Positions 7,090 to 40,123 of a stretch of 64,000 nucleotides of DNA are shown here, in pieces. Both the position numbers and the translations under genes were made by a program. Source of the DNA: a virus; IMG/VR virus record IMGVR_UViG_3300028920_000044, positions 45,195 to 109,194 of that record. The stretch is one strand, 5' to 3'. Each line of letters begins with the position of its first letter. The stretch's first letter is position 1. The notes under the pieces were generated by a model, which saw only the letters and a list, made by a program, of their open reading frames with translations, made no database searches and was not told the origin of the DNA.

Positions 7090-8055
7090 CTATTTAATGT
7101 CACATATCTTATAATAGTGACAAAAAAAGCATTTCTTTCGATTCACAAACTCATTATCACCAGGTGGTAAAGTATTGCTATCTAGAAACCCATTTATTTC
7201 TTTTATTTTACGCCGAATAAAATCGTAATAAGGTTCGGCATCAAAAGTATTCGTATCTAACACCATTGAAGTTATGAAATAAAATGGATTTCTTTTTGAA
7301 TTTAATTGTTTCTTAATAGAATCTACAATTTTAAGTGCCATAGAGAAATCATCAATATCACTTGCAGTGATATCATGTGCGAGATAAATAAACTGTAACG
7401 TATCTATATTATAATAGTCTAATGCTGGTTTATTTGATCTCGTTTTAATACTTTCATCTTTTGCTTCTGTAAGAAAATTCTCTAATACATACTTATAAGT
7501 CATTACTTGATAAAAGTCTGCAATTCTAGGTTTTTGATCTCTGATAATCTTTTGATAATCTTTATATGTACAACTTTTAATCTCTGCTAGGACATTAAAT
7601 CCCTTCAAATTATCTAATCTTCCACTAAATCGGATCGAAGGTATTTTTACAGATACTTCTGTTTCTGTAAATTGATCAGTTACTCCTTGAATGAAATCAT
7701 GACATGCACTTCCAAGTGTCGCTCGAAAAGATAGGGGTAACCACTTGTCCCCAAATGATTTAATAGGTGTTTTAGAAAGTTTATAAATAATTTGTCTGAT
7801 ACAATTATCTGCTACATCATATGCATTAATATTCGCGGCAACTTCGGCATAAACTCGATTCTTATTTTCTGCCTTTTCAGCTACTTCCCTTGAAAACACA
7901 GATACATCAAATGGTTTAGCTCGTTCACTAACTACAGGAACAGATTCTTCCTGTATAGAATCCTGTGTTTTAGATGCCTGAGATGCCGTGATTTTTCTTT
8001 CGCCTTCCTTGCCATTAATTAAATTTACTACGCTATTAAATTCACTCAATTGCAC
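7090..8055 (-). CDS. Cas4-like PD-(D/E)XK exonuclease with Fe-S cysteines
   Basis: N-terminal C (DNCIRQ), GSACH, GRLD...EIKS, Q...Y, and C-terminal CFFCHYYKIC. Confidence 0.8.
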   Translation of the reverse strand: MQLSEFNSVVNLINGKEGERKITASQASKTQDSIQEESVPVVSERAKPFDVSVFSREVAEKAENKNRVYAEVAANINAYDVADNCIRQIIYKLSKTPIKSFGDKWLPLSFRATLGSACHDFIQGVTDQFTETEVSVKIPSIRFSGRLDNLKGFNVLAEIKSCTYKDYQKIIRDQKPRIADFYQVMTYKYVLENFLTEAKDESIKTRSNKPALDYYNIDTLQFIYLAHDITASDIDDFSMALKIVDSIKKQLNSKRNPFYFITSMVLDTNTFDAEPYYDFIRRKIKEINGFLDSNTLPPGDNEFVNRKKCFFCHYYKICDIK

Positions 8056-20942: not shown

Positions 20943-23900
20943 TTATTCCTCCTCATCTAATACTTTTCTAACTTGTTGAATTAATTCTCTCAATGTGTAA
21001 GGTTTATTAATGAAGCTTTTTGCTCCAGAACCAATTGCGTCGTTAATAGGACCATTAGCAGAATATCCGCTAGCCACAATGATTTTAGCAGTAGGTTCTT
21101 CAATAATAATTCTTTCTAATACTTCTGTTCCTCCTATATCAGGCATAATTAAATCTAGAATAACTAAATCAATTAATTCCTTATTATTATTATAAGTCTC
21201 CAACCCCGATATACCGTCACAAGCAGATAAGACTGTATAACCATACATTTCTAGAATCTTGGTCCCTACTTTCTTGATATCTTCTTCATCATCGATCATA
21301 AGGATAGTTTCTTTTCCACCTATAAGATCCTTAGTTAAATCTATGGATGTTTGTTTCATTTCTTCCCCATCACTAATAGGGATATACAATTTAAACTCTG
21401 TTCCTTCATTCAAATTACTATATACAGTTATATACCCACCATGACTTTGCATAATACCATACACAACGGCTAATCCTAAACCAGTTCCTTTACCTGGTTC
21501 TTTAGTAGTAAAGAAAGGTTCAAAAATTCGTTCTTGTACATCAAAACTCATTCCTTCACCAGAATCAACGATACATATTCTGATATAATTCCCTGGTGTA
21601 GCATCAGGATGTTTCTCACAGTAATATTCGTCTAATTCTACTACCTTCGTTGTGATCATTATATGGCCACCATGAGGCATAGCATCTTTGGCATTTATAC
21701 ATAGATTCGTTATTACTTGATTTAATTGAGTAGGGTCTGCCAAACCAAGTGGTAAATCTTCTTGAAGTTTTAACTTAATTTTTATCATAACTGGACCAGT
21801 TGCTGCACGATCGAGAAGCTTATGGGCTAATTTAATTTCTTCGTTAACATTAATAGATTGAAGTCTACTTTCTACTTGTCTACTAAATGTAAGCAATCGT
21901 TTAGCTAAATCTGCTCCTCGCATAGATGCAGTATACATCGCAGATAACTGGCTTTTGATATCTTCATGATCCTTCACCATAAGTAACTGTAAATTACCGC
22001 TTATGATTTGAACAATGTTGTTAAAGTCATGAGCAACACCACCAGCTAATGTCCCAACGGCTTCCATTTTAGAAGCTCTGCGTAATTGTCTTTCTTTTTC
22101 TAATAAAGCTTCTTGGGCTTTCTTCATACCAGAAATATCTTTAATTATTGAAAGAATATGATCCTCGCCACCTATCTTAATTACACTTGAAGAAACTAAA
22201 GCAGATTTTGAAACACCATCTTTTCCTCTCAACATGGCTTCCATACTATCAACATATCCTCGTTCTCCAAGACTTTCATAGAACTTATCTCTATCTTCTT
22301 GATCTGACCACATCTCTAATTCGATTACATCTTTTCCTATAGCTTCTTCTCTAGTGTATCCTGATTCTTTTGTGAATCCTTGATTAACATCAACTATAAT
22401 ACCACTATTAGCTTTAAGAAGGATTATTGGATCAGGACTTGTTGTAAATGCTAATCTAAATTTCTCTTCACTTTCTTCAAGAGATTTCGTCGCGTTATAG
22501 CTATAAGTAATATCTTCAAATGCAATAGCAATACGATCTCCAGGTAAACAAAATGCTTTTATTCTATAAACACCGTCAAGATGGTCAGAATGATATATAT
22601 AACCTTCATTCTCATACGGACCATTCTTTAAAACGCAAGAATTATAAAGCGCATTCTTTAAATCTCCTCCACCTGGCCATATTTCGTCAAAAGATTTACC
22701 TTGATTACTACCAATATCTATTCTTGTGATTAATTCAGCAGCAGGATTACCATCAATAAGTATCATTTCTAAGTTCTTGCATTCATAAATAAAAATACCC
22801 GATGGTACCGTCTCAAATATTTGAGATGCTGTCTGTAATTCATATTCTGCTTTAACCCGTGAAGTAATATCTTGACCAAGTGAAATAACACCTACTAACT
22901 CACCTTTATCATTATGAAGAATTGTGTTATTCCATTCGCAAGTTATAACATCTCCGGATTTAGTAAGATTATCATTCACAATATGGATCGGTAATGTTTT
23001 ATTTAATAAACTTTCAACAACATCTAAAAGTTGTAAACGCTCATGCTTTGGAATTAAGAAATCAAAGATATTGTTCCCAATTACTTCTTCTTTCGACCAT
23101 CCAAAGATTTTTTCTGCATGATCATTCCATTCTTTTATGTGAGTGTGTTCATCCCAAAATATAATAGCGAGAGGAGCAGTCTCGAAAAGAGTTCTATATC
23201 GCTCTTCACTTTCTCGTATAAGATATTGTGATTGTTTACGACCTAACGCAATACCGATACTCGCTCCAAGTCCTTCAAAAAACTCAATCATATCCAGAGT
23301 AAACATATTCCTTCGACGATCATTTAATTGTAGTAACCCTATATTTATTCCTTCTGGAGAAACTAATGGAATAAGACCAACTGACATATATCCTTCTGCA
23401 TTACACCTGTTACGAGTTTTAAGTTTGACACCTGTCGGTACACCATCGTCTTTTAATAATTCAACTGTGTTATTTGTCCAGAAACTACCACCAATTGTAA
23501 AGTGGGGTAGGTTAGAATCTGTCTCTCCGCAAATAATCATACCACACATACAATCTAAACAAGCTGTACCGTCCGAATGCCTGATTACATTACCTACTTC
23601 GTCCCGTGAACATATATGGGTTTCTTTTTGAACAAAGTCTTCATCAAATCCTTCAGTTACATAATAAGGATATTCATCATTATCTTGTAATCTAATAGCA
23701 ACAGCATCTAACCTAGTAAACCTTTTAATAAGAGTTAAAATCTTCTTAATAGTTAATTCAGCTTCAAATTCAGAATTAAGAATATCTAAGACATTTGAAG
23801 ATAACTCCTGTCTTTCCCGATAACGTACTACATCTGATATGTCAGAGACTATTCCCACAAATCCAATTACCTCATTGTTTTTATCTCGTTTATAATTCCA

Positions 23901-26021
23901 ATCAACTTGAACATCAAAAGTTCTTCCACCTTTAGTGATATTCTTACCTTGATAAGTCTTAGGATCTGGTTGATCTATTGGTAAACTTCTAAACATATCT
24001 TTAAGTTCGTCTTTATTTTTGTCGCCCACAAACTCCCATATGTAATGCCCTAATACTTCGTCTTTAGACATTCTCATCATTTTTATATAAGCGCTATTAA
24101 CATAAATAAGTTTACCATTAATATCTAATTCTTCAATACCGTATGGACTTGTTTCTACTAATACACGATATTTTTTCTCACTTTCAATCAAAGCTTTTTC
24201 CGCCAACTTACGATCTGTTACATTAATAAGTATCCCATCTATAACATCGTGTTCTTCGTTATATCGGGCAGACACTTCAAGAGCAACATCCGATCCATCC
24301 TTTTTAGTTCCTTTAATAGGAAGATTATCGATTCTTTTTACTTCTCTTAAATGATCTATAACGTTATTAATCTGTGTTTGATCAGTATATTTCCCCCAAC
24401 CGGTAAATTTATCAAAGAGATCTGTAGAATCATCATATCCAAGCATTTTTATATGAGCAGGATTAGCTTCTATTGTTTTACCGGTGCTGATTTGTATTTG
24501 AAACATACCTACCATGGACGTTTCATATATAGTTCTGTATTTTCTTTCACTATCTTCAATAATTTTTCGTTGAGCTAATCTATTTGTTATATCTCTAGCA
24601 AATGCAACTATATATTCAACTTTATCAAATACAACATAAGTAGCAGATATTTCGACAGGTATTTTACTACTATCTTCTCTTTTATGTGTATGTTCGAAAA
24701 TCAACCAACCTTTAGTTCTCATTTGGATGAAATGTTCTTTCCATTCCTTCTTTCCAAAATCACTAAAATGAATATCCCATACATTCTTTTTCATCAATTG
24801 GTCTTTAGTATATCCTAATTGACTACATGCAGTTTGATTCACATATACAAATCTTCCATTTTTATTTAACCAAAAAGCAGCATCTTTCATAGCGTGTACA
24901 GCAAATTTAGTGAATTTAAGAAGCTTCTCAACTTTTAATCGAGCAAGTCGTTGGGTAATAAAAGCAACAATAATAAAGAACTGTATTACTATTATTGTGA
25001 TACTTGGCCAAAAATATTTCTTATATTTATCATAAAATGATATTGGAGCATTTATTATAACACTGTCAACTGGTAATCTTTGTAAGTCTATATTACGATT
25101 CATTAAAACATTATAATCAAACATTGGGGTGTTTGGACTTTTAATTACAACGGGAATTGAATTAATATCGATTCCTGATAACACTTTAACTGCCATGTTA
25201 GCAGCAATCTCCCCCTGTTTAAATCCATTTATAACATATCCTCCAATTATCTCATTACTAACACCAACTTCAAAATCACAAACGGTATACATTGAAATAT
25301 CAGGCCTTAATTTTTTAACCATGCTCGTTACTTGTCTTAATGATAATATCTTACCATCAATAGAATGACTAAATAGATATTTAATTATTGCAGATCTAAC
25401 AGGCAACGACAATATCCATTTTTTAATCCCATCAATTGTCCATGTATGGATCCATGAAACATAACCGTCGAGATCGGAATTATTATCAAATATATCCTTA
25501 ATTACTGAGTTGTCCGGTAGTCGAGTATCAATAACTACACCAATATGAGTAACATCTGGTTGTAACTGGTTAATCACATATATAGTTTTTGTCAGATCAA
25601 ATTCTTCCATAACTCCAGTTACGTCTTTTACTTCTACAATATTAAACAATGGATTAATACCACAAAAAATAATAGGAGTAGATATATCTACATATGCTTC
25701 CTCACGATGATTTAATGCAAACTCTAATGCATTATTATCGGACACAATAATGAGATCAAATTTCTTGTTTTTATGTTTAATATCAACGACTTCATGAAGC
25801 AACGTTCTTATTTCATCATAATTATTTCTTTTTGTGTCTAAATATTCTATGTGTTCTATATGATGCTCATTGGCATCTAAAACACTATCAATACCCTCCT
25901 GAATCCTATCTGTCCAAGCAAATCCTTGATGGTAAGAGTGAATAATTAATATCTCACCAGCGTTTGCTGCCGAACATAAAAGGGCAAATGCGCACATTAG
26001 TAAGATTGTTTTTAGCTTCAA
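20943..26021 (-). CDS. Hybrid sensor histidine kinase (signal peptide, ABC-substrate-binding-like sensor, TM, multiple PAS, GAF, HisKA, HATPase, REC)
   Basis: ILIIHSYHQGFAWTD sensor; repeated SE.KYR..FE...DIT PAS units; GVAHDFNNI H-box; NLCINAKDAM; DSGEGM; FFTTKEPGKGTGLGL; LVILDLIMP receiver. Confidence 0.95.
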   Translation of the reverse strand: MKLKTILLMCAFALLCSAANAGEILIIHSYHQGFAWTDRIQEGIDSVLDANEHHIEHIEYLDTKRNNYDEIRTLLHEVVDIKHKNKKFDLIIVSDNNALEFALNHREEAYVDISTPIIFCGINPLFNIVEVKDVTGVMEEFDLTKTIYVINQLQPDVTHIGVVIDTRLPDNSVIKDIFDNNSDLDGYVSWIHTWTIDGIKKWILSLPVRSAIIKYLFSHSIDGKILSLRQVTSMVKKLRPDISMYTVCDFEVGVSNEIIGGYVINGFKQGEIAANMAVKVLSGIDINSIPVVIKSPNTPMFDYNVLMNRNIDLQRLPVDSVIINAPISFYDKYKKYFWPSITIIVIQFFIIVAFITQRLARLKVEKLLKFTKFAVHAMKDAAFWLNKNGRFVYVNQTACSQLGYTKDQLMKKNVWDIHFSDFGKKEWKEHFIQMRTKGWLIFEHTHKREDSSKIPVEISATYVVFDKVEYIVAFARDITNRLAQRKIIEDSERKYRTIYETSMVGMFQIQISTGKTIEANPAHIKMLGYDDSTDLFDKFTGWGKYTDQTQINNVIDHLREVKRIDNLPIKGTKKDGSDVALEVSARYNEEHDVIDGILINVTDRKLAEKALIESEKKYRVLVETSPYGIEELDINGKLIYVNSAYIKMMRMSKDEVLGHYIWEFVGDKNKDELKDMFRSLPIDQPDPKTYQGKNITKGGRTFDVQVDWNYKRDKNNEVIGFVGIVSDISDVVRYRERQELSSNVLDILNSEFEAELTIKKILTLIKRFTRLDAVAIRLQDNDEYPYYVTEGFDEDFVQKETHICSRDEVGNVIRHSDGTACLDCMCGMIICGETDSNLPHFTIGGSFWTNNTVELLKDDGVPTGVKLKTRNRCNAEGYMSVGLIPLVSPEGINIGLLQLNDRRRNMFTLDMIEFFEGLGASIGIALGRKQSQYLIRESEERYRTLFETAPLAIIFWDEHTHIKEWNDHAEKIFGWSKEEVIGNNIFDFLIPKHERLQLLDVVESLLNKTLPIHIVNDNLTKSGDVITCEWNNTILHNDKGELVGVISLGQDITSRVKAEYELQTASQIFETVPSGIFIYECKNLEMILIDGNPAAELITRIDIGSNQGKSFDEIWPGGGDLKNALYNSCVLKNGPYENEGYIYHSDHLDGVYRIKAFCLPGDRIAIAFEDITYSYNATKSLEESEEKFRLAFTTSPDPIILLKANSGIIVDVNQGFTKESGYTREEAIGKDVIELEMWSDQEDRDKFYESLGERGYVDSMEAMLRGKDGVSKSALVSSSVIKIGGEDHILSIIKDISGMKKAQEALLEKERQLRRASKMEAVGTLAGGVAHDFNNIVQIISGNLQLLMVKDHEDIKSQLSAMYTASMRGADLAKRLLTFSRQVESRLQSINVNEEIKLAHKLLDRAATGPVMIKIKLKLQEDLPLGLADPTQLNQVITNLCINAKDAMPHGGHIMITTKVVELDEYYCEKHPDATPGNYIRICIVDSGEGMSFDVQERIFEPFFTTKEPGKGTGLGLAVVYGIMQSHGGYITVYSNLNEGTEFKLYIPISDGEEMKQTSIDLTKDLIGGKETILMIDDEEDIKKVGTKILEMYGYTVLSACDGISGLETYNNNKELIDLVILDLIMPDIGGTEVLERIIIEEPTAKIIVASGYSANGPINDAIGSGAKSFINKPYTLRELIQQVRKVLDEEE

Positions 26022-33112: not shown

Positions 33113-34366
33113 GTGGCTATGGTAAGTGAAGAGTTAGCAAAAAACAGTATGCCGTTAAATGATGTTGTAAATGATCTAATGGTTTTCAATTGTGTGTTAC
33201 AAACGGCAGGTGACCAGTTTGCTTTAAAGAGAGGTGGCGTCGCTATCCCTTATGTCATCAGCCAACCTGGTGCTGGTAAAACAGCATCATTTGTAGATCT
33301 TTGTATGCGTCTGGGATGGGGATTAATCGTCGTACATCTTGCTATGAAACCTATAGAAGAACTCGGCGGTATTCCAGACTTTAGAGACATTGAAATCAAT
33401 GGAGAGAAGTTTCCAGGTACGGTATGGTCTATTCCTGACCTAATCGGACAATTATACCAAATGGAAGCAAAGAACCTCCCCGGTGTGTTTTTATGTTTCG
33501 ATGATATCCACCTTTGTGGTTCAACATATCTAGGATTAATGCAAGAGTTCTTTACAGAAAGAACTATGCGTGGATACAAAGTCCCAGACAGTGTTGCAAT
33601 TTGTCTGTTTGGTAACAGCACAAATAAAGCGGGTGCTAAAGTTCTTTCATCTGCAATAACAAATAGATGTTGTATGTTACCCATTGTAGCAGATTATGAA
33701 TCATGGAGAAAGAATTTTGCACTTGGTAACTTAGCAGAAACCCCAAAGTTGGGATTTGACCCTGCGAAACTTAGATTGTTAGCCCAACAAATTACTCGAG
33801 TTCACCCTGCAGTTACTTCGTTCTTAGGAAGAGATAGCTATGCTAAATTCTTTCATGAAGAAGAACAAGTGGACTCTCCTTGGGCCAGTCCTCGATCTTG
33901 GACTAGATTTTCTAATTGGCTTTTTGCCTATGAGCTTGTCCATGGAAGAATCATGGAGGATCATTACGCATTATATTTGGGAACTGGGCATGTTGGGAAA
34001 GAAGCAGCTAGCGAGTTTGTGAAATATTATAAGATCTTTTCGAAGTTTGATATTCCACATATACTCAATACTGTTGATGCTTACATACTTCCTACATCAC
34101 CAGTTGATCAATATGCGTTAGCATATGCGGTTACAAGTCACTACTGTAATGATAAGAACCGCAAGAATATTGTTGGAAGCTTCGCTAAATTTATTCTCAA
34201 ATATTTTGATAACCTACCAGATTTAGCATTAATGGTCGTAAGAGAAATTCTTGATACTGAGAATATCGTCAACAAGAGAACTCTCTATATTGATCTCACA
34301 ACAGAATTAAACGCTCTACGTCCTGGCGTAACGTATAATCTTCTCAAAGATGTAAATGATGCGTAA
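33113..34366 (+). CDS. MoxR-like AAA+ ATPase
   Basis: SQPGAGKT Walker A, LGGIP, LCFDD Walker B, LSSAITNR, SPRSW. Confidence 0.85.
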   Translation: MAMVSEELAKNSMPLNDVVNDLMVFNCVLQTAGDQFALKRGGVAIPYVISQPGAGKTASFVDLCMRLGWGLIVVHLAMKPIEELGGIPDFRDIEINGEKFPGTVWSIPDLIGQLYQMEAKNLPGVFLCFDDIHLCGSTYLGLMQEFFTERTMRGYKVPDSVAICLFGNSTNKAGAKVLSSAITNRCCMLPIVADYESWRKNFALGNLAETPKLGFDPAKLRLLAQQITRVHPAVTSFLGRDSYAKFFHEEEQVDSPWASPRSWTRFSNWLFAYELVHGRIMEDHYALYLGTGHVGKEAASEFVKYYKIFSKFDIPHILNTVDAYILPTSPVDQYALAYAVTSHYCNDKNRKNIVGSFAKFILKYFDNLPDLALMVVREILDTENIVNKRTLYIDLTTELNALRPGVTYNLLKDVNDA

Positions 34367-34375
34367 GGAGAATTT

Positions 34376-35725
34376 ATGAACCCACTTGTCGCTAAGAAAG
34401 TACAGAACGCACGAATAAAGTTATTTAAAAAATCTGACGGTCTGAATTTCTTTGGTGCATGTTCTTATATGTTTGACTGGGACATTCATTCAATGCCCGG
34501 GAGAAACGCAGAAGGATATGTACTATTCAACAAAGATACTTTTAAACATGAGGATGGAACTATCCATGTTAACCTAGATATGGTCATGCTAGACAATTAT
34601 ACTCATATAAATTTAGCATACATTGTGTGTCATGAATTACTCCACATACTTGGAAAACACGGTGTCAGAAAAGGTCAAAGAGACCATGACATCTGGTGTG
34701 TAGCTTGTGACCATACAGTTGAACGAGACCTGAAAGCATTAGCAACCTCTATCGTACCTTATGATAATTCATATCATATGTTCGATGAATTACATAGATT
34801 GAAAAATAATTGCACAGTCGAATTTGCCTACGATTGGATCCAGAAACAAATCAAATTAGGAAACATTAAAGTAATCAGAATTCCAGGGGGAATGATTGGT
34901 GTCAGTGGATCCGGCGGTGACTTCTTTGTCAACCCTCAAGTCGGTGGAGTCGATCAAGATAAAATTAAAAGTAATGATCAAAAGATAATTTTAACAAATG
35001 AAAAGATTGTTGCTGAAGCTCGAGCTTTACATCAAACGATGAAAGCGAAAGGTAATCAGAGTGGAAATCTGACTTCATATTTAGATAAACTACTCGCAGT
35101 GAAAATCCCTTGGGATGTTTTATTAGAAAAAGCGATCAAAACAAATGTCATACTTAAACCTAATGAACGAACATGGAGAAATCCTAACAAGTACTTTCGA
35201 GCATTAGGTTATATTCTACCCGGTACATCTTCAACAGAAGACCGAGAAGGAGTAGGTGTGATCATCTATGCAACCGATAGTTCCGGTTCAATGTCAGATG
35301 AAGAATTGAAGAAGTGCTCTAGTGTAACAGATCAAAGCTTTCAATTCTTTCGAGAGGTTTGGTTGTATGTGCATGACACGACAGTTAAACAGAGGAAGAT
35401 ATTTACAAAAGATGATCGTTACATGTTCATGAAATTCCTAAAGAACGAAGGTTATAAAGGAAGAGGTGGAACAAGTCACGAGGATGTATTTGAAAAGATC
35501 CAAAAACAAGCATGGGAGAACGATCAAGTTAAGAACGATTTATCTATGGTAATATGCCTAACTGATGGTTGTTCTGATATTGAAACAATGATTAAGAAAA
35601 AAGAATATCGATGGTTAAAGACAATACCAACCGTATTCGTTATATCAGGAGGGTATAACCTAAACATCGAGCAAGACAACATTAAAGTAATTTATATGGA
35701 CGGTAGAGATCCAGGTGAGGATTGA
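34376..35725 (+). CDS. Metallopeptidase-vWA protein (DUF2201-like)
   Basis: VCHELLH..H..R..R; DSSGSM MIDAS; GRGGT; LTDG. Confidence 0.85.
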   Translation: MNPLVAKKVQNARIKLFKKSDGLNFFGACSYMFDWDIHSMPGRNAEGYVLFNKDTFKHEDGTIHVNLDMVMLDNYTHINLAYIVCHELLHILGKHGVRKGQRDHDIWCVACDHTVERDLKALATSIVPYDNSYHMFDELHRLKNNCTVEFAYDWIQKQIKLGNIKVIRIPGGMIGVSGSGGDFFVNPQVGGVDQDKIKSNDQKIILTNEKIVAEARALHQTMKAKGNQSGNLTSYLDKLLAVKIPWDVLLEKAIKTNVILKPNERTWRNPNKYFRALGYILPGTSSTEDREGVGVIIYATDSSGSMSDEELKKCSSVTDQSFQFFREVWLYVHDTTVKQRKIFTKDDRYMFMKFLKNEGYKGRGGTSHEDVFEKIQKQAWENDQVKNDLSMVICLTDGCSDIETMIKKKEYRWLKTIPTVFVISGGYNLNIEQDNIKVIYMDGRDPGED

Positions 35726-36319: not shown

Positions 36320-36631
36320 TTAAAGATAATCGTTAATTCCACCTTCTTGGAGAGCTTCTCCATCAGGAACCAACGCAGACTGGGCATGAACAGCTTCGTT
36401 GATGAAGGTCATTGTGGCAACCTCAGAGAATAAACGAATATTTTTGTAGGTCTCCGGCAGATTGGCGCCCACGAACTCATCAAAATGCTCAAGGACGAAA
36501 GCCTTCAGCGTTTTACCATAATCATAGGTAGCAGCAACAGCCTCTTCGATAAGGTCATTATTCTGCTCCACGAAAACCTGCATTTCTTCACTTTCCAGGA
36601 TAGTTTCTACATAACTCTTTTGTTCTGACAT
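36320..36631 (-). CDS. Acidic protein, possible head scaffold/core-like
   Basis: Start MSEQKSY after GGAGG; very Glu-rich. Confidence 0.6.
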   Translation of the reverse strand: MSEQKSYVETILESEEMQVFVEQNNDLIEEAVAATYDYGKTLKAFVLEHFDEFVGANLPETYKNIRLFSEVATMTFINEAVHAQSALVPDGEALQEGGINDYL

Positions 36632-36693
36632 TTGAAATTCCTCCAATTTATTTATTTGGTTGGTTGTTTAAATTGTTCTAATTATAAATACGA

Positions 36694-37364
36694 TTAACCA
36701 GGGGCTTGCTGACGCTTTCTACGAAGTTTGCTAAGGGCCCATCCACCTAAGAGAGCTCCACCAGCGGCTGCGGCCATTCCTGCAGGATTATCGTCCATAC
36801 CCTGACGAAGACCTTTAGACATTGCTCCCGCTTTTTCTGAAGCATATTCACCAGCAGCACCAATTTTCTTACCTGCTGCGCTGAATCCTTTTTGGGCTGT
36901 ACGTTCAAGAGATTTACCAAATCCTTCATCTCTAAATGCTTTCTCGGCACCTTCTCGACCACTTCTGGCACCCATCTTAACACCAGCAGCTCTAGCTTGA
37001 GTCATTTCTGCAGGACTATATCCACCACCAGCGCTAACCATTCCACGTTTAACTGAGTCTCTAGCGCCTCTATACCAATCGGCAGGATTATACCAAGCTT
37101 CGCGTAAGCCGTCACCAGCCCACCCAATTTGCCCCGACAAAAGGTGGGCTACTCTTTTTTTCCTTCAGGTTCTCCAACAGCTTCCATCAAGAACTTTCGA
37201 GAAGCATCAAAATCCGCTTCACTGATAAGTCCTTCTACCTCTGTACCCGGTTCACCTGTCTTTGTCTCCACTCCTTCTTGAATAACATCAGCGCCATCCG
37301 GTTCTTCCATGATGTTAGCCACGGACTCTTCGATAATCTTATTGACATCGTAACTCATATTCAC
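36694..37364 (-). CDS. Two ORFs (37149..37364 and 36694..~37155) probably joined by -1 ribosomal frameshift; acidic leader plus basic Gly/Ala-rich body
   Basis: A_AAA_AAA heptamer at 37161-37155, downstream ORF open in the -1 frame, 8-bp stem AGCCCACC/GGTGGGCT 4 nt downstream. Confidence 0.65.
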
Positions 37365-37398
37365 TTCCTCCTAGTTTCATTTATATGAACCTTGGTTA

Positions 37399-39475: not shown

Positions 39476-39688
39476 TTATTTAGGTCTACCGTCTATCACT
39501 TCAGTCGGTACTATATCCTCAAAGTATTTATTTACTCGATCAACTTGTCGTTCCTCATCAGTTGCAAGCCAGTCTTTCTTTATAGGTTCCTTAACCCAAC
39601 CTTCATTAAGACGTCTTAATCGTTTAGCTACACCTAAAGCACCCAATCCTGCTGTTATACCAACTATCTCCATTTCGTTTAACGCCAT
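39476..39688 (-). CDS. GITAGLGA-family small membrane peptide
   Basis: GITAGLGALGVAKRLRR. Confidence 0.65.
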   Translation of the reverse strand: MALNEMEIVGITAGLGALGVAKRLRRLNEGWVKEPIKKDWLATDEERQVDRVNKYFEDIVPTEVIDGRPK

Positions 39689-39976: not shown

Positions 39977-40123
39977 TCAGTCCTTGTCACTTGCCTGTTT
40001 ACTTTCAACAATTTTTTCTTGATTAGAAGGGGTATCGCTCGTTTCTTGAACCCTTCGTAGTTTCTTAGCGAAATTCATCGCTCCTAATCCTGCTGTTATT
40101 CCGGTTAATTCTATGTTTGTCAT
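39977..40123 (-). CDS. GITAGLGA-family small peptide (48 aa), not in ORF track
   Basis: MTNIELTGITAGLGAMNFAKKLRRVQETSDTPSNQEKIVESKQASDKD; GGAGAGG RBS. Confidence 0.7.
   Translation of the reverse strand: MTNIELTGITAGLGAMNFAKKLRRVQETSDTPSNQEKIVESKQASDKD

What the first reader, a model, noticed from the sequence alone, without database searches (positions are those of the whole stretch)
37110..37165. Probable -1 programmed ribosomal frameshift in a head-protein-like gene
Minus-strand RNA reads GGA AAA AAA GAG UAG with an in-frame A_AAA_AAA heptamer (37161-37155) two codons before the stop. Four nt later a perfect 8-bp stem AGCCCACC/GGUGGGCU begins, and its loop (UUGUCG) could pair with downstream UGACGG as a pseudoknot. 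The -1 frame is open from the slip site through 36694 and lacks a convincing RBS/ATG of its own. The fusion (about 223 aa, ...GEPEGKK-RVAHLLSGQIGWAGDGLRE...) recreates the acidic-leader plus basic-body design of neighbouring genes. This is not a recognisable tail-chaperone locus, the usual site of phage frameshifts.
Basis: partly seen in the sequence, partly recalled or inferred. Interest (0 to 1): 0.7.

Follow-up and report, generated by a model that had tools for sequence, protein, structure and literature searches.

The report
Conserved -1 frameshift in phage gene
An uncultured marine-sediment phage and its relatives can only make one 221-residue protein if the reading frame moves back one base at a run of seven A's; the trick is textbook, but this gene family was not known to use it.

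Summary
On the minus strand a 69-aa acidic leader ORF (37358-37149) ends GGA AAA AAA GAG TAG. The -1 frame is closed by TGA just before the A7 run and then stays open for 153 codons to 36694.

The A7 run is real DNA. Contigs assembled from three further sequencing runs, each from a different study, carry it unchanged.

The layout is conserved. All 8 leader lineages (58-78% identity) end (G/A)KK, one codon, stop. Every body homologue is called short. In the three lineages with DNA, three features are kept: GGAG 10 nt upstream, the A7 run, and a GC hairpin 5 nt downstream.

One lineage (L004) has no ATG, GTG or TTG for 34 codons after the slip site. That stretch is still under purifying selection in the -1 frame.

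A distant relative (P0024, 256 aa) carries leader and body in one ORF, joined at the homologous point.

Best reading: a dnaX-style programmed -1 ribosomal frameshift (about 0.66). Transcriptional slippage gives the same protein (about 0.17). The proposed pseudoknot and the "head protein" label are not supported, and the protein's function is unknown.

This is a new member of a known kind. The scan has noted similar acidic-protein/basic-tail frameshifts in other large phages.

The parts
37367..37372 (-). Shine-Dalgarno AGGAGG of the leader ORF, 8 nt before ATG 37358
   Evidence: ACTAGGAGGA is invariant in the window, L002 and L004.
37149..37358 (-). Zero-frame leader ORF of 69 aa. It is acidic and ends ...GEPEGKKE followed by TAG.
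   Evidence: There are 8 lineages of 67-75 aa. The first 17 residues are almost invariant, and all end (G/A)KK-x-stop.
37172..37175 (-). Internal SD-like GGAG, 10 nt upstream of the heptamer. It is a candidate 5' stimulator, as in dnaX.
   Evidence: invariant and at the same spacing in the three lineages with DNA. A functional role is inferred, not shown.
37165..37167 (-). TGA stop in the -1 frame, immediately 5' of the slip site. It limits where the frame change can occur.
   Evidence: Conserved in L002 and L004.
37155..37161 (-). Slippery heptamer A_AAA_AAA (Lys-Lys in the zero frame)
   Evidence: Identical in L002, L003 and L004. Bridged unchanged by contigs of 3 other studies.
37149..37151 (-). 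Zero-frame stop TAG, the second codon after the heptamer. Its G is the first base of the conserved stem.
   Evidence: The stop sits one codon after KK in all 8 leader lineages.
37117..37150 (-). Stimulatory hairpin. The conserved core is GCCCACC (37149-37143) / GGUGGGC (37124-37118). It has an upper stem UUUGU/GCAAA and lies 5 nt (core) after the heptamer.
   Evidence: Free energy is -16.9, -17.8 and -14.3 kcal/mol in the window, L002 and L004. Seven pairs are invariant and an eighth is U-A or U-G. The distance between the arms is 18 nt in all three. No informative covariation.
36694..37155 (-). Body read in the -1 frame: 153 aa plus stop. It is basic and Ala/Gly/Lys-rich and ends in a Gly/Ala hydrophobic segment followed by KLRRKRQ.
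   Evidence: In the start-free part of L004, dN/dS in the -1 frame is 0.19-0.33.
37138..37140 (-). TTG, the only start-like codon near the junction. It lies inside the hairpin and has no SD.
   Evidence: Present in the window and L002, absent in L004. This is the site of the reinitiation rival.

Best explanation
One mRNA gives two proteins. Ribosomes start at ATG 37358 behind a strong AGGAGG and translate the acidic leader. With the two Lys codons of A_AAA_AAA in the P and A sites, the GC-rich hairpin 5 nt downstream sits at the mRNA entrance. The GGAG 10 nt upstream can pair with the anti-SD of 16S rRNA. A fraction of ribosomes slip back one base, and both tRNA-Lys re-pair perfectly on AAA.

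Ribosomes that do not slip read GAG and stop at TAG, releasing a 69-aa acidic peptide. Ribosomes that slip read AGA GUA GCC... and make a 221-aa protein made of leader, basic helical body and a C-terminal hydrophobic-plus-basic segment.

Shown: the signals, their conservation, the coding signature of the -1 frame without a start codon, and the natural fused homologue.

Inferred: that the shift is ribosomal, its efficiency, and that both products are used. The likely purpose is a fixed ratio of free leader to leader-body, as with lambda G/GT or dnaX tau/gamma.
For: - In-phase A_AAA_AAA inside an overlap of only about 17 nt between the -1 frame TGA and the zero-frame TAG.
- The A7 run is real: contigs from 3 other studies, plus 3 related metagenome loci, have the same run.
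- All 8 leader lineages end KK-x-stop. All close body homologues are 112-148 aa, and none is fused among proteins of 85-273 aa. No fused form turned up among longer proteins.
- The leader/body split also holds in deep lineages, judged from shared contig lengths: P0013 with P0015, and P0025 with P0016.
- L004 has no ATG, GTG or TTG for 34 codons after the slip. In the 27 aligned codons of that stretch, dN/dS is 0.33 and 0.19 in the -1 frame and 0.9-3.8 in the other frames.
- P0024 (256 aa; cluster mate P0026 lies on a 114.8-kb contig) matches the leader profile at residues 1-59 (hhalign 97%, E 1.2e-10). It matches the body profile at residues 131-253 (97%, E 3.7e-11). Its junction ...SEGK|LNHLS... 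corresponds to ...PEGKK|RVAHLLS... here.
- The three-part layout (SD-like motif, slippery Lys-Lys site, downstream hairpin) is that of E. coli dnaX (PMC5389563). The 5-nt spacer lies within the 5-9 nt range given in PMC5009743.
- The hairpin is in the top 0.1% of local folds on this strand.
Against: - No RNA or protein data exist, so neither product has been seen.
- In E. coli, A_AAA_AAA is much less shift-prone than A_AAA_AAG (PMC5009743).
- The hairpin arms encode conserved residues (Ala-His-Leu and Trp-Ala), and three sequences give no covariation. Structure and protein constraint therefore cannot be separated.
- The fold is not unusual against shuffles of the local GC-rich sequence (z -0.4 to -1.5).
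- An extra A added by RNA polymerase would give the identical protein.
- A TTG lies 8 nt after the stop in the window and L002. Several relatives' gene calls start at the aligned position.
- The host and its tRNA-Lys are unknown.
Confidence: 0.66

Rival explanations
1. Transcriptional slippage. RNA polymerase (host or phage) stutters on the T7 template run and adds one A. A share of mRNAs then carries A8 and encodes the same 221-aa fusion in one frame.
For: - The product...GKK-RVAHL..., is the same as from a ribosomal slip.
- A-runs are known slippage sites, and many IS elements use them in place of ribosomal frameshifting (PMC5009743).
- The conservation evidence does not separate the two mechanisms.
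Against: - Seven A's is short for efficient slippage by bacterial RNA polymerase. From my own knowledge, the natural cases named in the review use longer runs.
- A conserved hairpin 5 nt downstream and a GGAG 10 nt upstream have a role in ribosomal frameshifting and none known in slippage.
- The run is exactly 7 in all three lineages with DNA, never 8 or more.
Confidence: 0.17
2. Two separate proteins by termination-reinitiation. Ribosomes finish the leader at TAG, open the hairpin, and restart at the TTG 8 nt downstream (37140). Leader and body are then made as coupled but unlinked proteins.
For: - TTG is present at this position in the window and L002.
- Gene calls P0002-P0004, P0015 and P0016 begin at the aligned residue.
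- A start codon hidden in a hairpin next to the upstream stop is a classical coupling layout (own knowledge).
Against: - L004 has no start-like codon until 34 codons later, and the P0005 and P0006 gene calls likewise begin only at that internal Met. The intervening codons in L004 are still under purifying selection in the -1 frame.
- There is no SD before the TTG.
- Coupling does not explain the invariant KK/A7.
- P0024 is translated straight through the homologous junction and keeps His-Leu there.
Confidence: 0.1
3. Not a recoding site: an assembly or homopolymer error, or a recently broken, decaying gene.
For: A single contig with a frame break at a homopolymer is the usual signature of such errors.
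Against: - The same A7 appears in contigs of 3 other studies and in 3 diverged loci.
- The split is kept in 8 lineages down to 58% leader identity.
- Both halves are under purifying selection.
Confidence: 0.02

Closest known systems
E. coli dnaX (tau/gamma) -1 programmed frameshift cassette
   Same: Three-part signal on tandem Lys codons: an SD-like motif about 10 nt upstream, an A-rich heptamer, and a stem-loop a few nt downstream (PMC5389563).
   Different: - The heptamer is A_AAA_AAA, not A_AAA_AAG.
- In dnaX the shift truncates the protein (gamma). Here the shift is needed to make the long product, and the unshifted product is a 69-aa peptide.
- The genes are unrelated, and this one is in a phage.
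Phage lambda G/GT tail assembly chaperone frameshift
   Same: A phage late-type gene pair in which a conserved -1 slip near the end of a short ORF makes a minor long fusion. This presumably fixes a ratio between the two products.
   Different: - The locus is not between a tail tube gene and a tape-measure gene. No ORF longer than 479 aa lies within 11 kb on either side.
- No homology to the chaperone.
- The slip site and stimulators differ.
Head-gene frameshifts: T7/T3 gene 10A/10B, Lactobacillus phage A2 gp5A/5B, Listeria phages A118/A500/PSA
   Same: These are phage frameshifts outside the tail-chaperone locus that give two versions of one protein (PMC5009743; PMC10885494, ref. 41).
   Different: - Those add a C-terminal extension to a complete capsid protein.
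- Here the zero-frame product is only a leader, and the protein has no recognisable family or proven virion role.
IS3/IS1-family orfA-orfB -1 frameshifts
   Same: A short upstream ORF and a long downstream ORF in the -1 frame with no start of its own. An A-rich heptamer with a 3' structure joins them, and the fusion is the main functional product (PMC5009743).
   Different: There is no transposase, no inverted repeats and no mobile element. The gene is a syntenic member of a phage gene array.

Membership tests
Programmed -1 ribosomal frameshift site (dnaX/IS3 type) | X_XXY_YYZ heptamer in phase with the upstream ORF | tested here: met
   GG A_AAA_AAA at 37161-37155, in phase. Same in L002 and L004.
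Programmed -1 ribosomal frameshift site (dnaX/IS3 type) | Stable RNA structure 5-9 nt 3' of the heptamer | tested here: met
   Hairpin of -14 to -18 kcal/mol with a 5-nt spacer in three lineages. Top 0.1% of folds on this strand. No covariation is available.
Programmed -1 ribosomal frameshift site (dnaX/IS3 type) | The -1 ORF codes for protein and has no initiation signal of its own | tested here: met
   No SD. TTG occurs only in some lineages and is absent in L004. dN/dS is 0.19-0.33 in the -1 frame.
Programmed -1 ribosomal frameshift site (dnaX/IS3 type) | Signals and split conserved in relatives | tested here: met
   8 leader lineages end KK-x-stop. DNA signals are invariant in 3 lineages.
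Programmed -1 ribosomal frameshift site (dnaX/IS3 type) | Both products are made, with a trans-frame junction peptide | not testable with these tools
   No RNA run was listed and no proteome exists.
Transcriptional slippage site | Long homopolymer (usually 8-9 or more A/T) without a need for 3' RNA structure | tested here: inconclusive
   The run is 7 in all lineages and comes with a conserved 3' hairpin. The properties of the polymerase involved are unknown.
Tail assembly chaperone G/GT | Sits between the major tail protein and the tape-measure gene, with homology to chaperone families | tested here: not met
   No PHROG or Pfam hit. Neighbours are small acid/basic proteins, with no long tape-measure-like ORF nearby.
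Phage head-internal / prohead-core proteins with cleaved acidic propeptide | Homology to known core or internal proteins, or presence in virions with protease processing | tested here: inconclusive
   - Only the charge layout is shared: first 70 aa have 18 D/E against 7 K/R, the rest 14 against 24.
- No BLAST similarity to the neighbours and no family hits.
- Searches for the T4 protease and gp23 families found nothing, but the controls did not ring either.

The most novel reading that the evidence does not exclude
The frameshift is an obligatory ratio device. The body can only be made fused to its leader, and the free acidic leader is made in excess. Its N-terminal 17 residues are invariant. 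The free leader would act as a detachable chaperone, neutraliser or targeting peptide for the basic, possibly membrane-active, body. On this reading the site is one instance of a recurrent, convergent design in large uncultured phages: an acidic protein plus a basic tail added by a -1 slip. Other windows of this scan also noted that design.
Probability: 0.3. Interest if true: 0.6.

Novelty: new member of a known kind. Interest (0 to 1): 0.45.

Why it matters
- **Annotation.** Gene callers split this gene in every lineage. They report a 69-aa ORF and a 112-148-aa ORF with arbitrary starts, so the real 221-aa protein is missing from protein databases. Recognising the site corrects the annotation of a whole family from marine-sediment phages.
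- **A clean natural case.** It adds a dnaX-like three-signal cassette in a phage gene outside the tail-chaperone locus.
- **Testable biology.** Relatives with a fused and with a split version both exist, which allows a test of why a phage would put a leader/body junction under translational control.
- **Limits.** The mechanism itself is textbook, and the protein's function is unknown.

Tried and rejected
**Searches for homologues and DNA**
- blastn of the locus against 50,697 phage records: no match.
- tblastn of the body and of P0024 against the same records: no match.
- PHROGs and Pfam on the leader, the body, the fused relative and the neighbours: nothing meaningful.
- IMG/VR scans with the body, the profiles, P0024, the leader profile and a DNA pattern for the cassette: no relatives.
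- GTDB genome scan: none.
The DNA of P0002, P0003, P0005, P0012-P0016 and of the fused P0024/P0026 could therefore not be read. Covariation in the hairpin, and the state of the slip site in the fused form, remain untested.

**Expression**
- No RNA holder was listed among the sequencing runs.

**Structure and function**
- ESM Atlas on P0024 and on the 479-aa upstream neighbour: best scores 0.79-0.80, uninformative.
- AlphaFold model of P0024: all-helical but mean pLDDT 57, too weak for a fold search.
- Alignment A6, which mixed leaders and bodies, was misaligned and was not used.
- T4 prohead protease and gp23 families in the contig: no hit, but the controls did not ring either, so this says nothing.

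**Readings rejected**
- A sigma-70-like site with an extended -10 lies inside the body ORF (37115-37087). It arises from Trp-Tyr-Asn codons and is lost in L004, so it was treated as chance.
- A plus-strand terminator reading of hairpin plus T7: 4 nt separate the stem from the T-run, no plus-strand gene is nearby, and the scan called no terminator.

Full report
**What is there**

The window is the last 64 kb of a 109-kb IMG/VR phage contig (CheckV completeness 41%). It comes from marine sediment. On the minus strand a strong AGGAGG precedes ATG 37358, and a 69-aa acidic ORF follows (MSYDVNKIIEESVANIM...GEPEGKKE). It ends GGA AAA AAA GAG TAG, with the stop at 37151-37149.

The seven A's (37161-37155) are in phase as A_AAA_AAA. 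The -1 frame has TGA at 37167-37165 and is then open for 153 codons down to 36694. A frame change that joins the two ORFs must therefore happen within about 17 nt, and the only shift-prone sequence there is the A-run.

Five nt after the run the core stem GCCCACC/GGUGGGC begins. In the window an extra A-U pair makes the spacer 4 nt. With the upper stem UUUGU/GCAAA the hairpin folds to -16.9 kcal/mol. GGAG lies 10 nt upstream of the run. The joined product has 221 residues, 68 from the leader and 153 from the body.

**Is it more than chance or error?**

The genome is 35% G+C. The 50 nt after the run fold to -21.4 kcal/mol, matched by only 0.1% of 1729 windows on this strand (mean -5.7, sd 3.1). 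Against shuffles of the locally GC-rich 81 nt, however, the z-score is only -1.46. The structure is therefore unusual for the genome but not for its local composition.

Logan contigs of four runs were laid on the stretch. X1 may be the source of the window. X2, X3 and X4 come from three other studies, and each bridges the run without a single difference or gap. Contigs cannot show rare variants, but A7 is clearly the dominant form in the DNA.

**Relatives**

The body has five diverged homologue clusters besides its own, at 68-76% identity. All were called as short proteins of 112-148 aa. None is near 220 aa, although proteins up to 273 aa were searched.

The leader has seven, plus the L004 copy, at 58-78% identity and 67-75 aa. 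Every one ends (G/A)KK, one codon, stop. A search among longer proteins with the leader found no fused form (weak evidence).

Three metagenome loci supplied DNA, and L002 and L003 are identical here. In L002 and L004, TGAAGGAAAAAAAG, the TAG two codons later, GCCCACCU and GGUGGGC are invariant. The distance between the arms is 18 nt in all three, and GGAG keeps its 10-nt spacing. Gene order around L004 is the same as in the window, and the four neighbouring acid/basic genes are intact single ORFs there.

**Why a frame change and not two genes**

In L004 the -1 frame has no ATG, GTG or TTG for 34 codons after the run. Yet it encodes ...AHL...WAGNGLDEAIYNPADWW..., which is like the window sequence. 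For the 27 aligned codons of that stretch, dN/dS in the -1 frame is 0.33 (window against L004) and 0.19 (L002 against L004). In the other two frames it is 0.9-3.8. That stretch is translated, and only ribosomes coming from the leader can reach it.

A profile search over 1.84 billion representatives found distant bodies, again short. It also found P0024 (256 aa). Its cluster mate P0026 lies on a 114.8-kb contig.

- P0024 residues 1-59 match the leader profile (hhalign 97%, E 1.2e-10).
- P0024 residues 131-253 match the body profile (97%, E 3.7e-11).
- Its sequence runs ...SEGK-LNHLS... where the window has ...PEGKK | RVAHLLS....

So leader and body form one polypeptide in a relative, joined at the homologous point.

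In deeper split lineages, leader and body clusters share the same longest contig: P0013 and P0015 at 11,661 bp, and P0025 and P0016 at 65,241 bp. This suggests the split is old.

**Mechanism**

The layout is the three-signal design of E. coli dnaX: an SD-like motif, tandem Lys codons in a heptamer, and a downstream hairpin. [quoted passage not shown] The 5-nt spacer lies within the 5-9 nt range quoted for such sites (PMC5009743).

I therefore favour a ribosomal -1 slip (0.66). Four caveats apply.

- A_AAA_AAA is much less shifty than A_AAA_AAG in E. coli (PMC5009743).
- The stem arms encode conserved Ala-His-Leu and Trp-Ala, and three sequences give no covariation. The three synonymous positions inside the core stem are, however, unchanged in all three.
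- Transcriptional slippage adding one A would give the very same protein (0.17).
- In the window and L002 a TTG lies 8 nt after the stop, inside the hairpin. Some termination-reinitiation cannot be excluded there (0.10), but L004 shows it cannot be the general route.

It gains a mismatch in L002 and is absent in L004.

**What the protein is**

This remains unknown. There are no Pfam or PHROG hits, no relative in 50,697 phage records, and no informative Atlas hit. The AlphaFold model of the fused relative is all-helical but of low confidence (pLDDT 57).

The fused protein shares with its four neighbours only the charge layout, an acidic first 70 residues and a basic remainder. It shows no detectable sequence similarity to them. 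The most conserved part of the family is the C-terminus...DNPAG + Gly/Ala-rich hydrophobic stretch + SKL(L)RRR. 'Head-protein-like' is thus an untested idea.

**Comparison and novelty**

Phage frameshifts outside the tail-chaperone locus are known: T3/T7 gene 10, phage A2, and Listeria phages (PMC5009743; PMC10885494). A library search for frameshifting together with prohead-core or internal-head proteins found no paper holding both.

Earlier notes of this scan describe similar -1 slips that add basic tails to acidic proteins in other large uncultured phages. I did not test them. This case is a well-supported new member of a known kind. Its unusual points are that the unshifted product is only a short leader, and that a natural fused relative exists.

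Noticed in passing
window 20943-26021 (-): A 1692-aa hybrid sensor kinase (several PAS domains, GAF, HisKA, HATPase, receiver) sits inside the phage contig among virion-type genes.
   Followed up: no
window 39476-39688 (-) and 39977-40123 (-): Two small ORFs (70 and 48 aa) begin with ...GITAGLGA(L/M)xxAK(R/K)LRR.... This is the same motif that ends the frameshifted body family (GAGLGALGLSKLLRRR in distant relatives). The two ORFs are paralogous to each other (BLAST E 4e-9).
   Followed up: partly
window 33113-35725 (+): A MoxR-like ATPase and a DUF2201 metallopeptidase/VWA gene form the only plus-strand pair in this region. The pair is syntenic in L004.
   Followed up: no
window 37087-37115 (-): A sigma-70-like site with an extended -10 (TGGTATAAT) lies inside the body ORF. 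It arises from Trp-Tyr-Asn codons, is kept in L002 and is lost in L004.
   Followed up: partly
window about 35794 and about 60000 (-): An A8 run and an A7 run are each followed by very stable hairpins (-27.9 and -23.2 kcal/mol). The first lies between convergent genes and is likely a bidirectional terminator.
   Followed up: no
L004 4011-4016 and 4057-4062: In L004 only, GUCUAG directly after the A-run can pair with CUAGAC 3' of the hairpin. This would enclose the hairpin in a longer helix.
   Followed up: no
window 7090-8055 (-): A 321-aa ORF has a weak PHROG hit annotated 'CRISPR/Cas system associated' (E 1e-11).
   Followed up: no
window 36320-36646 (-): The gene just downstream encodes a 108-aa purely acidic protein with no basic body, a free-standing 'leader-like' protein in the same array. 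It is conserved in L004.
   Followed up: no
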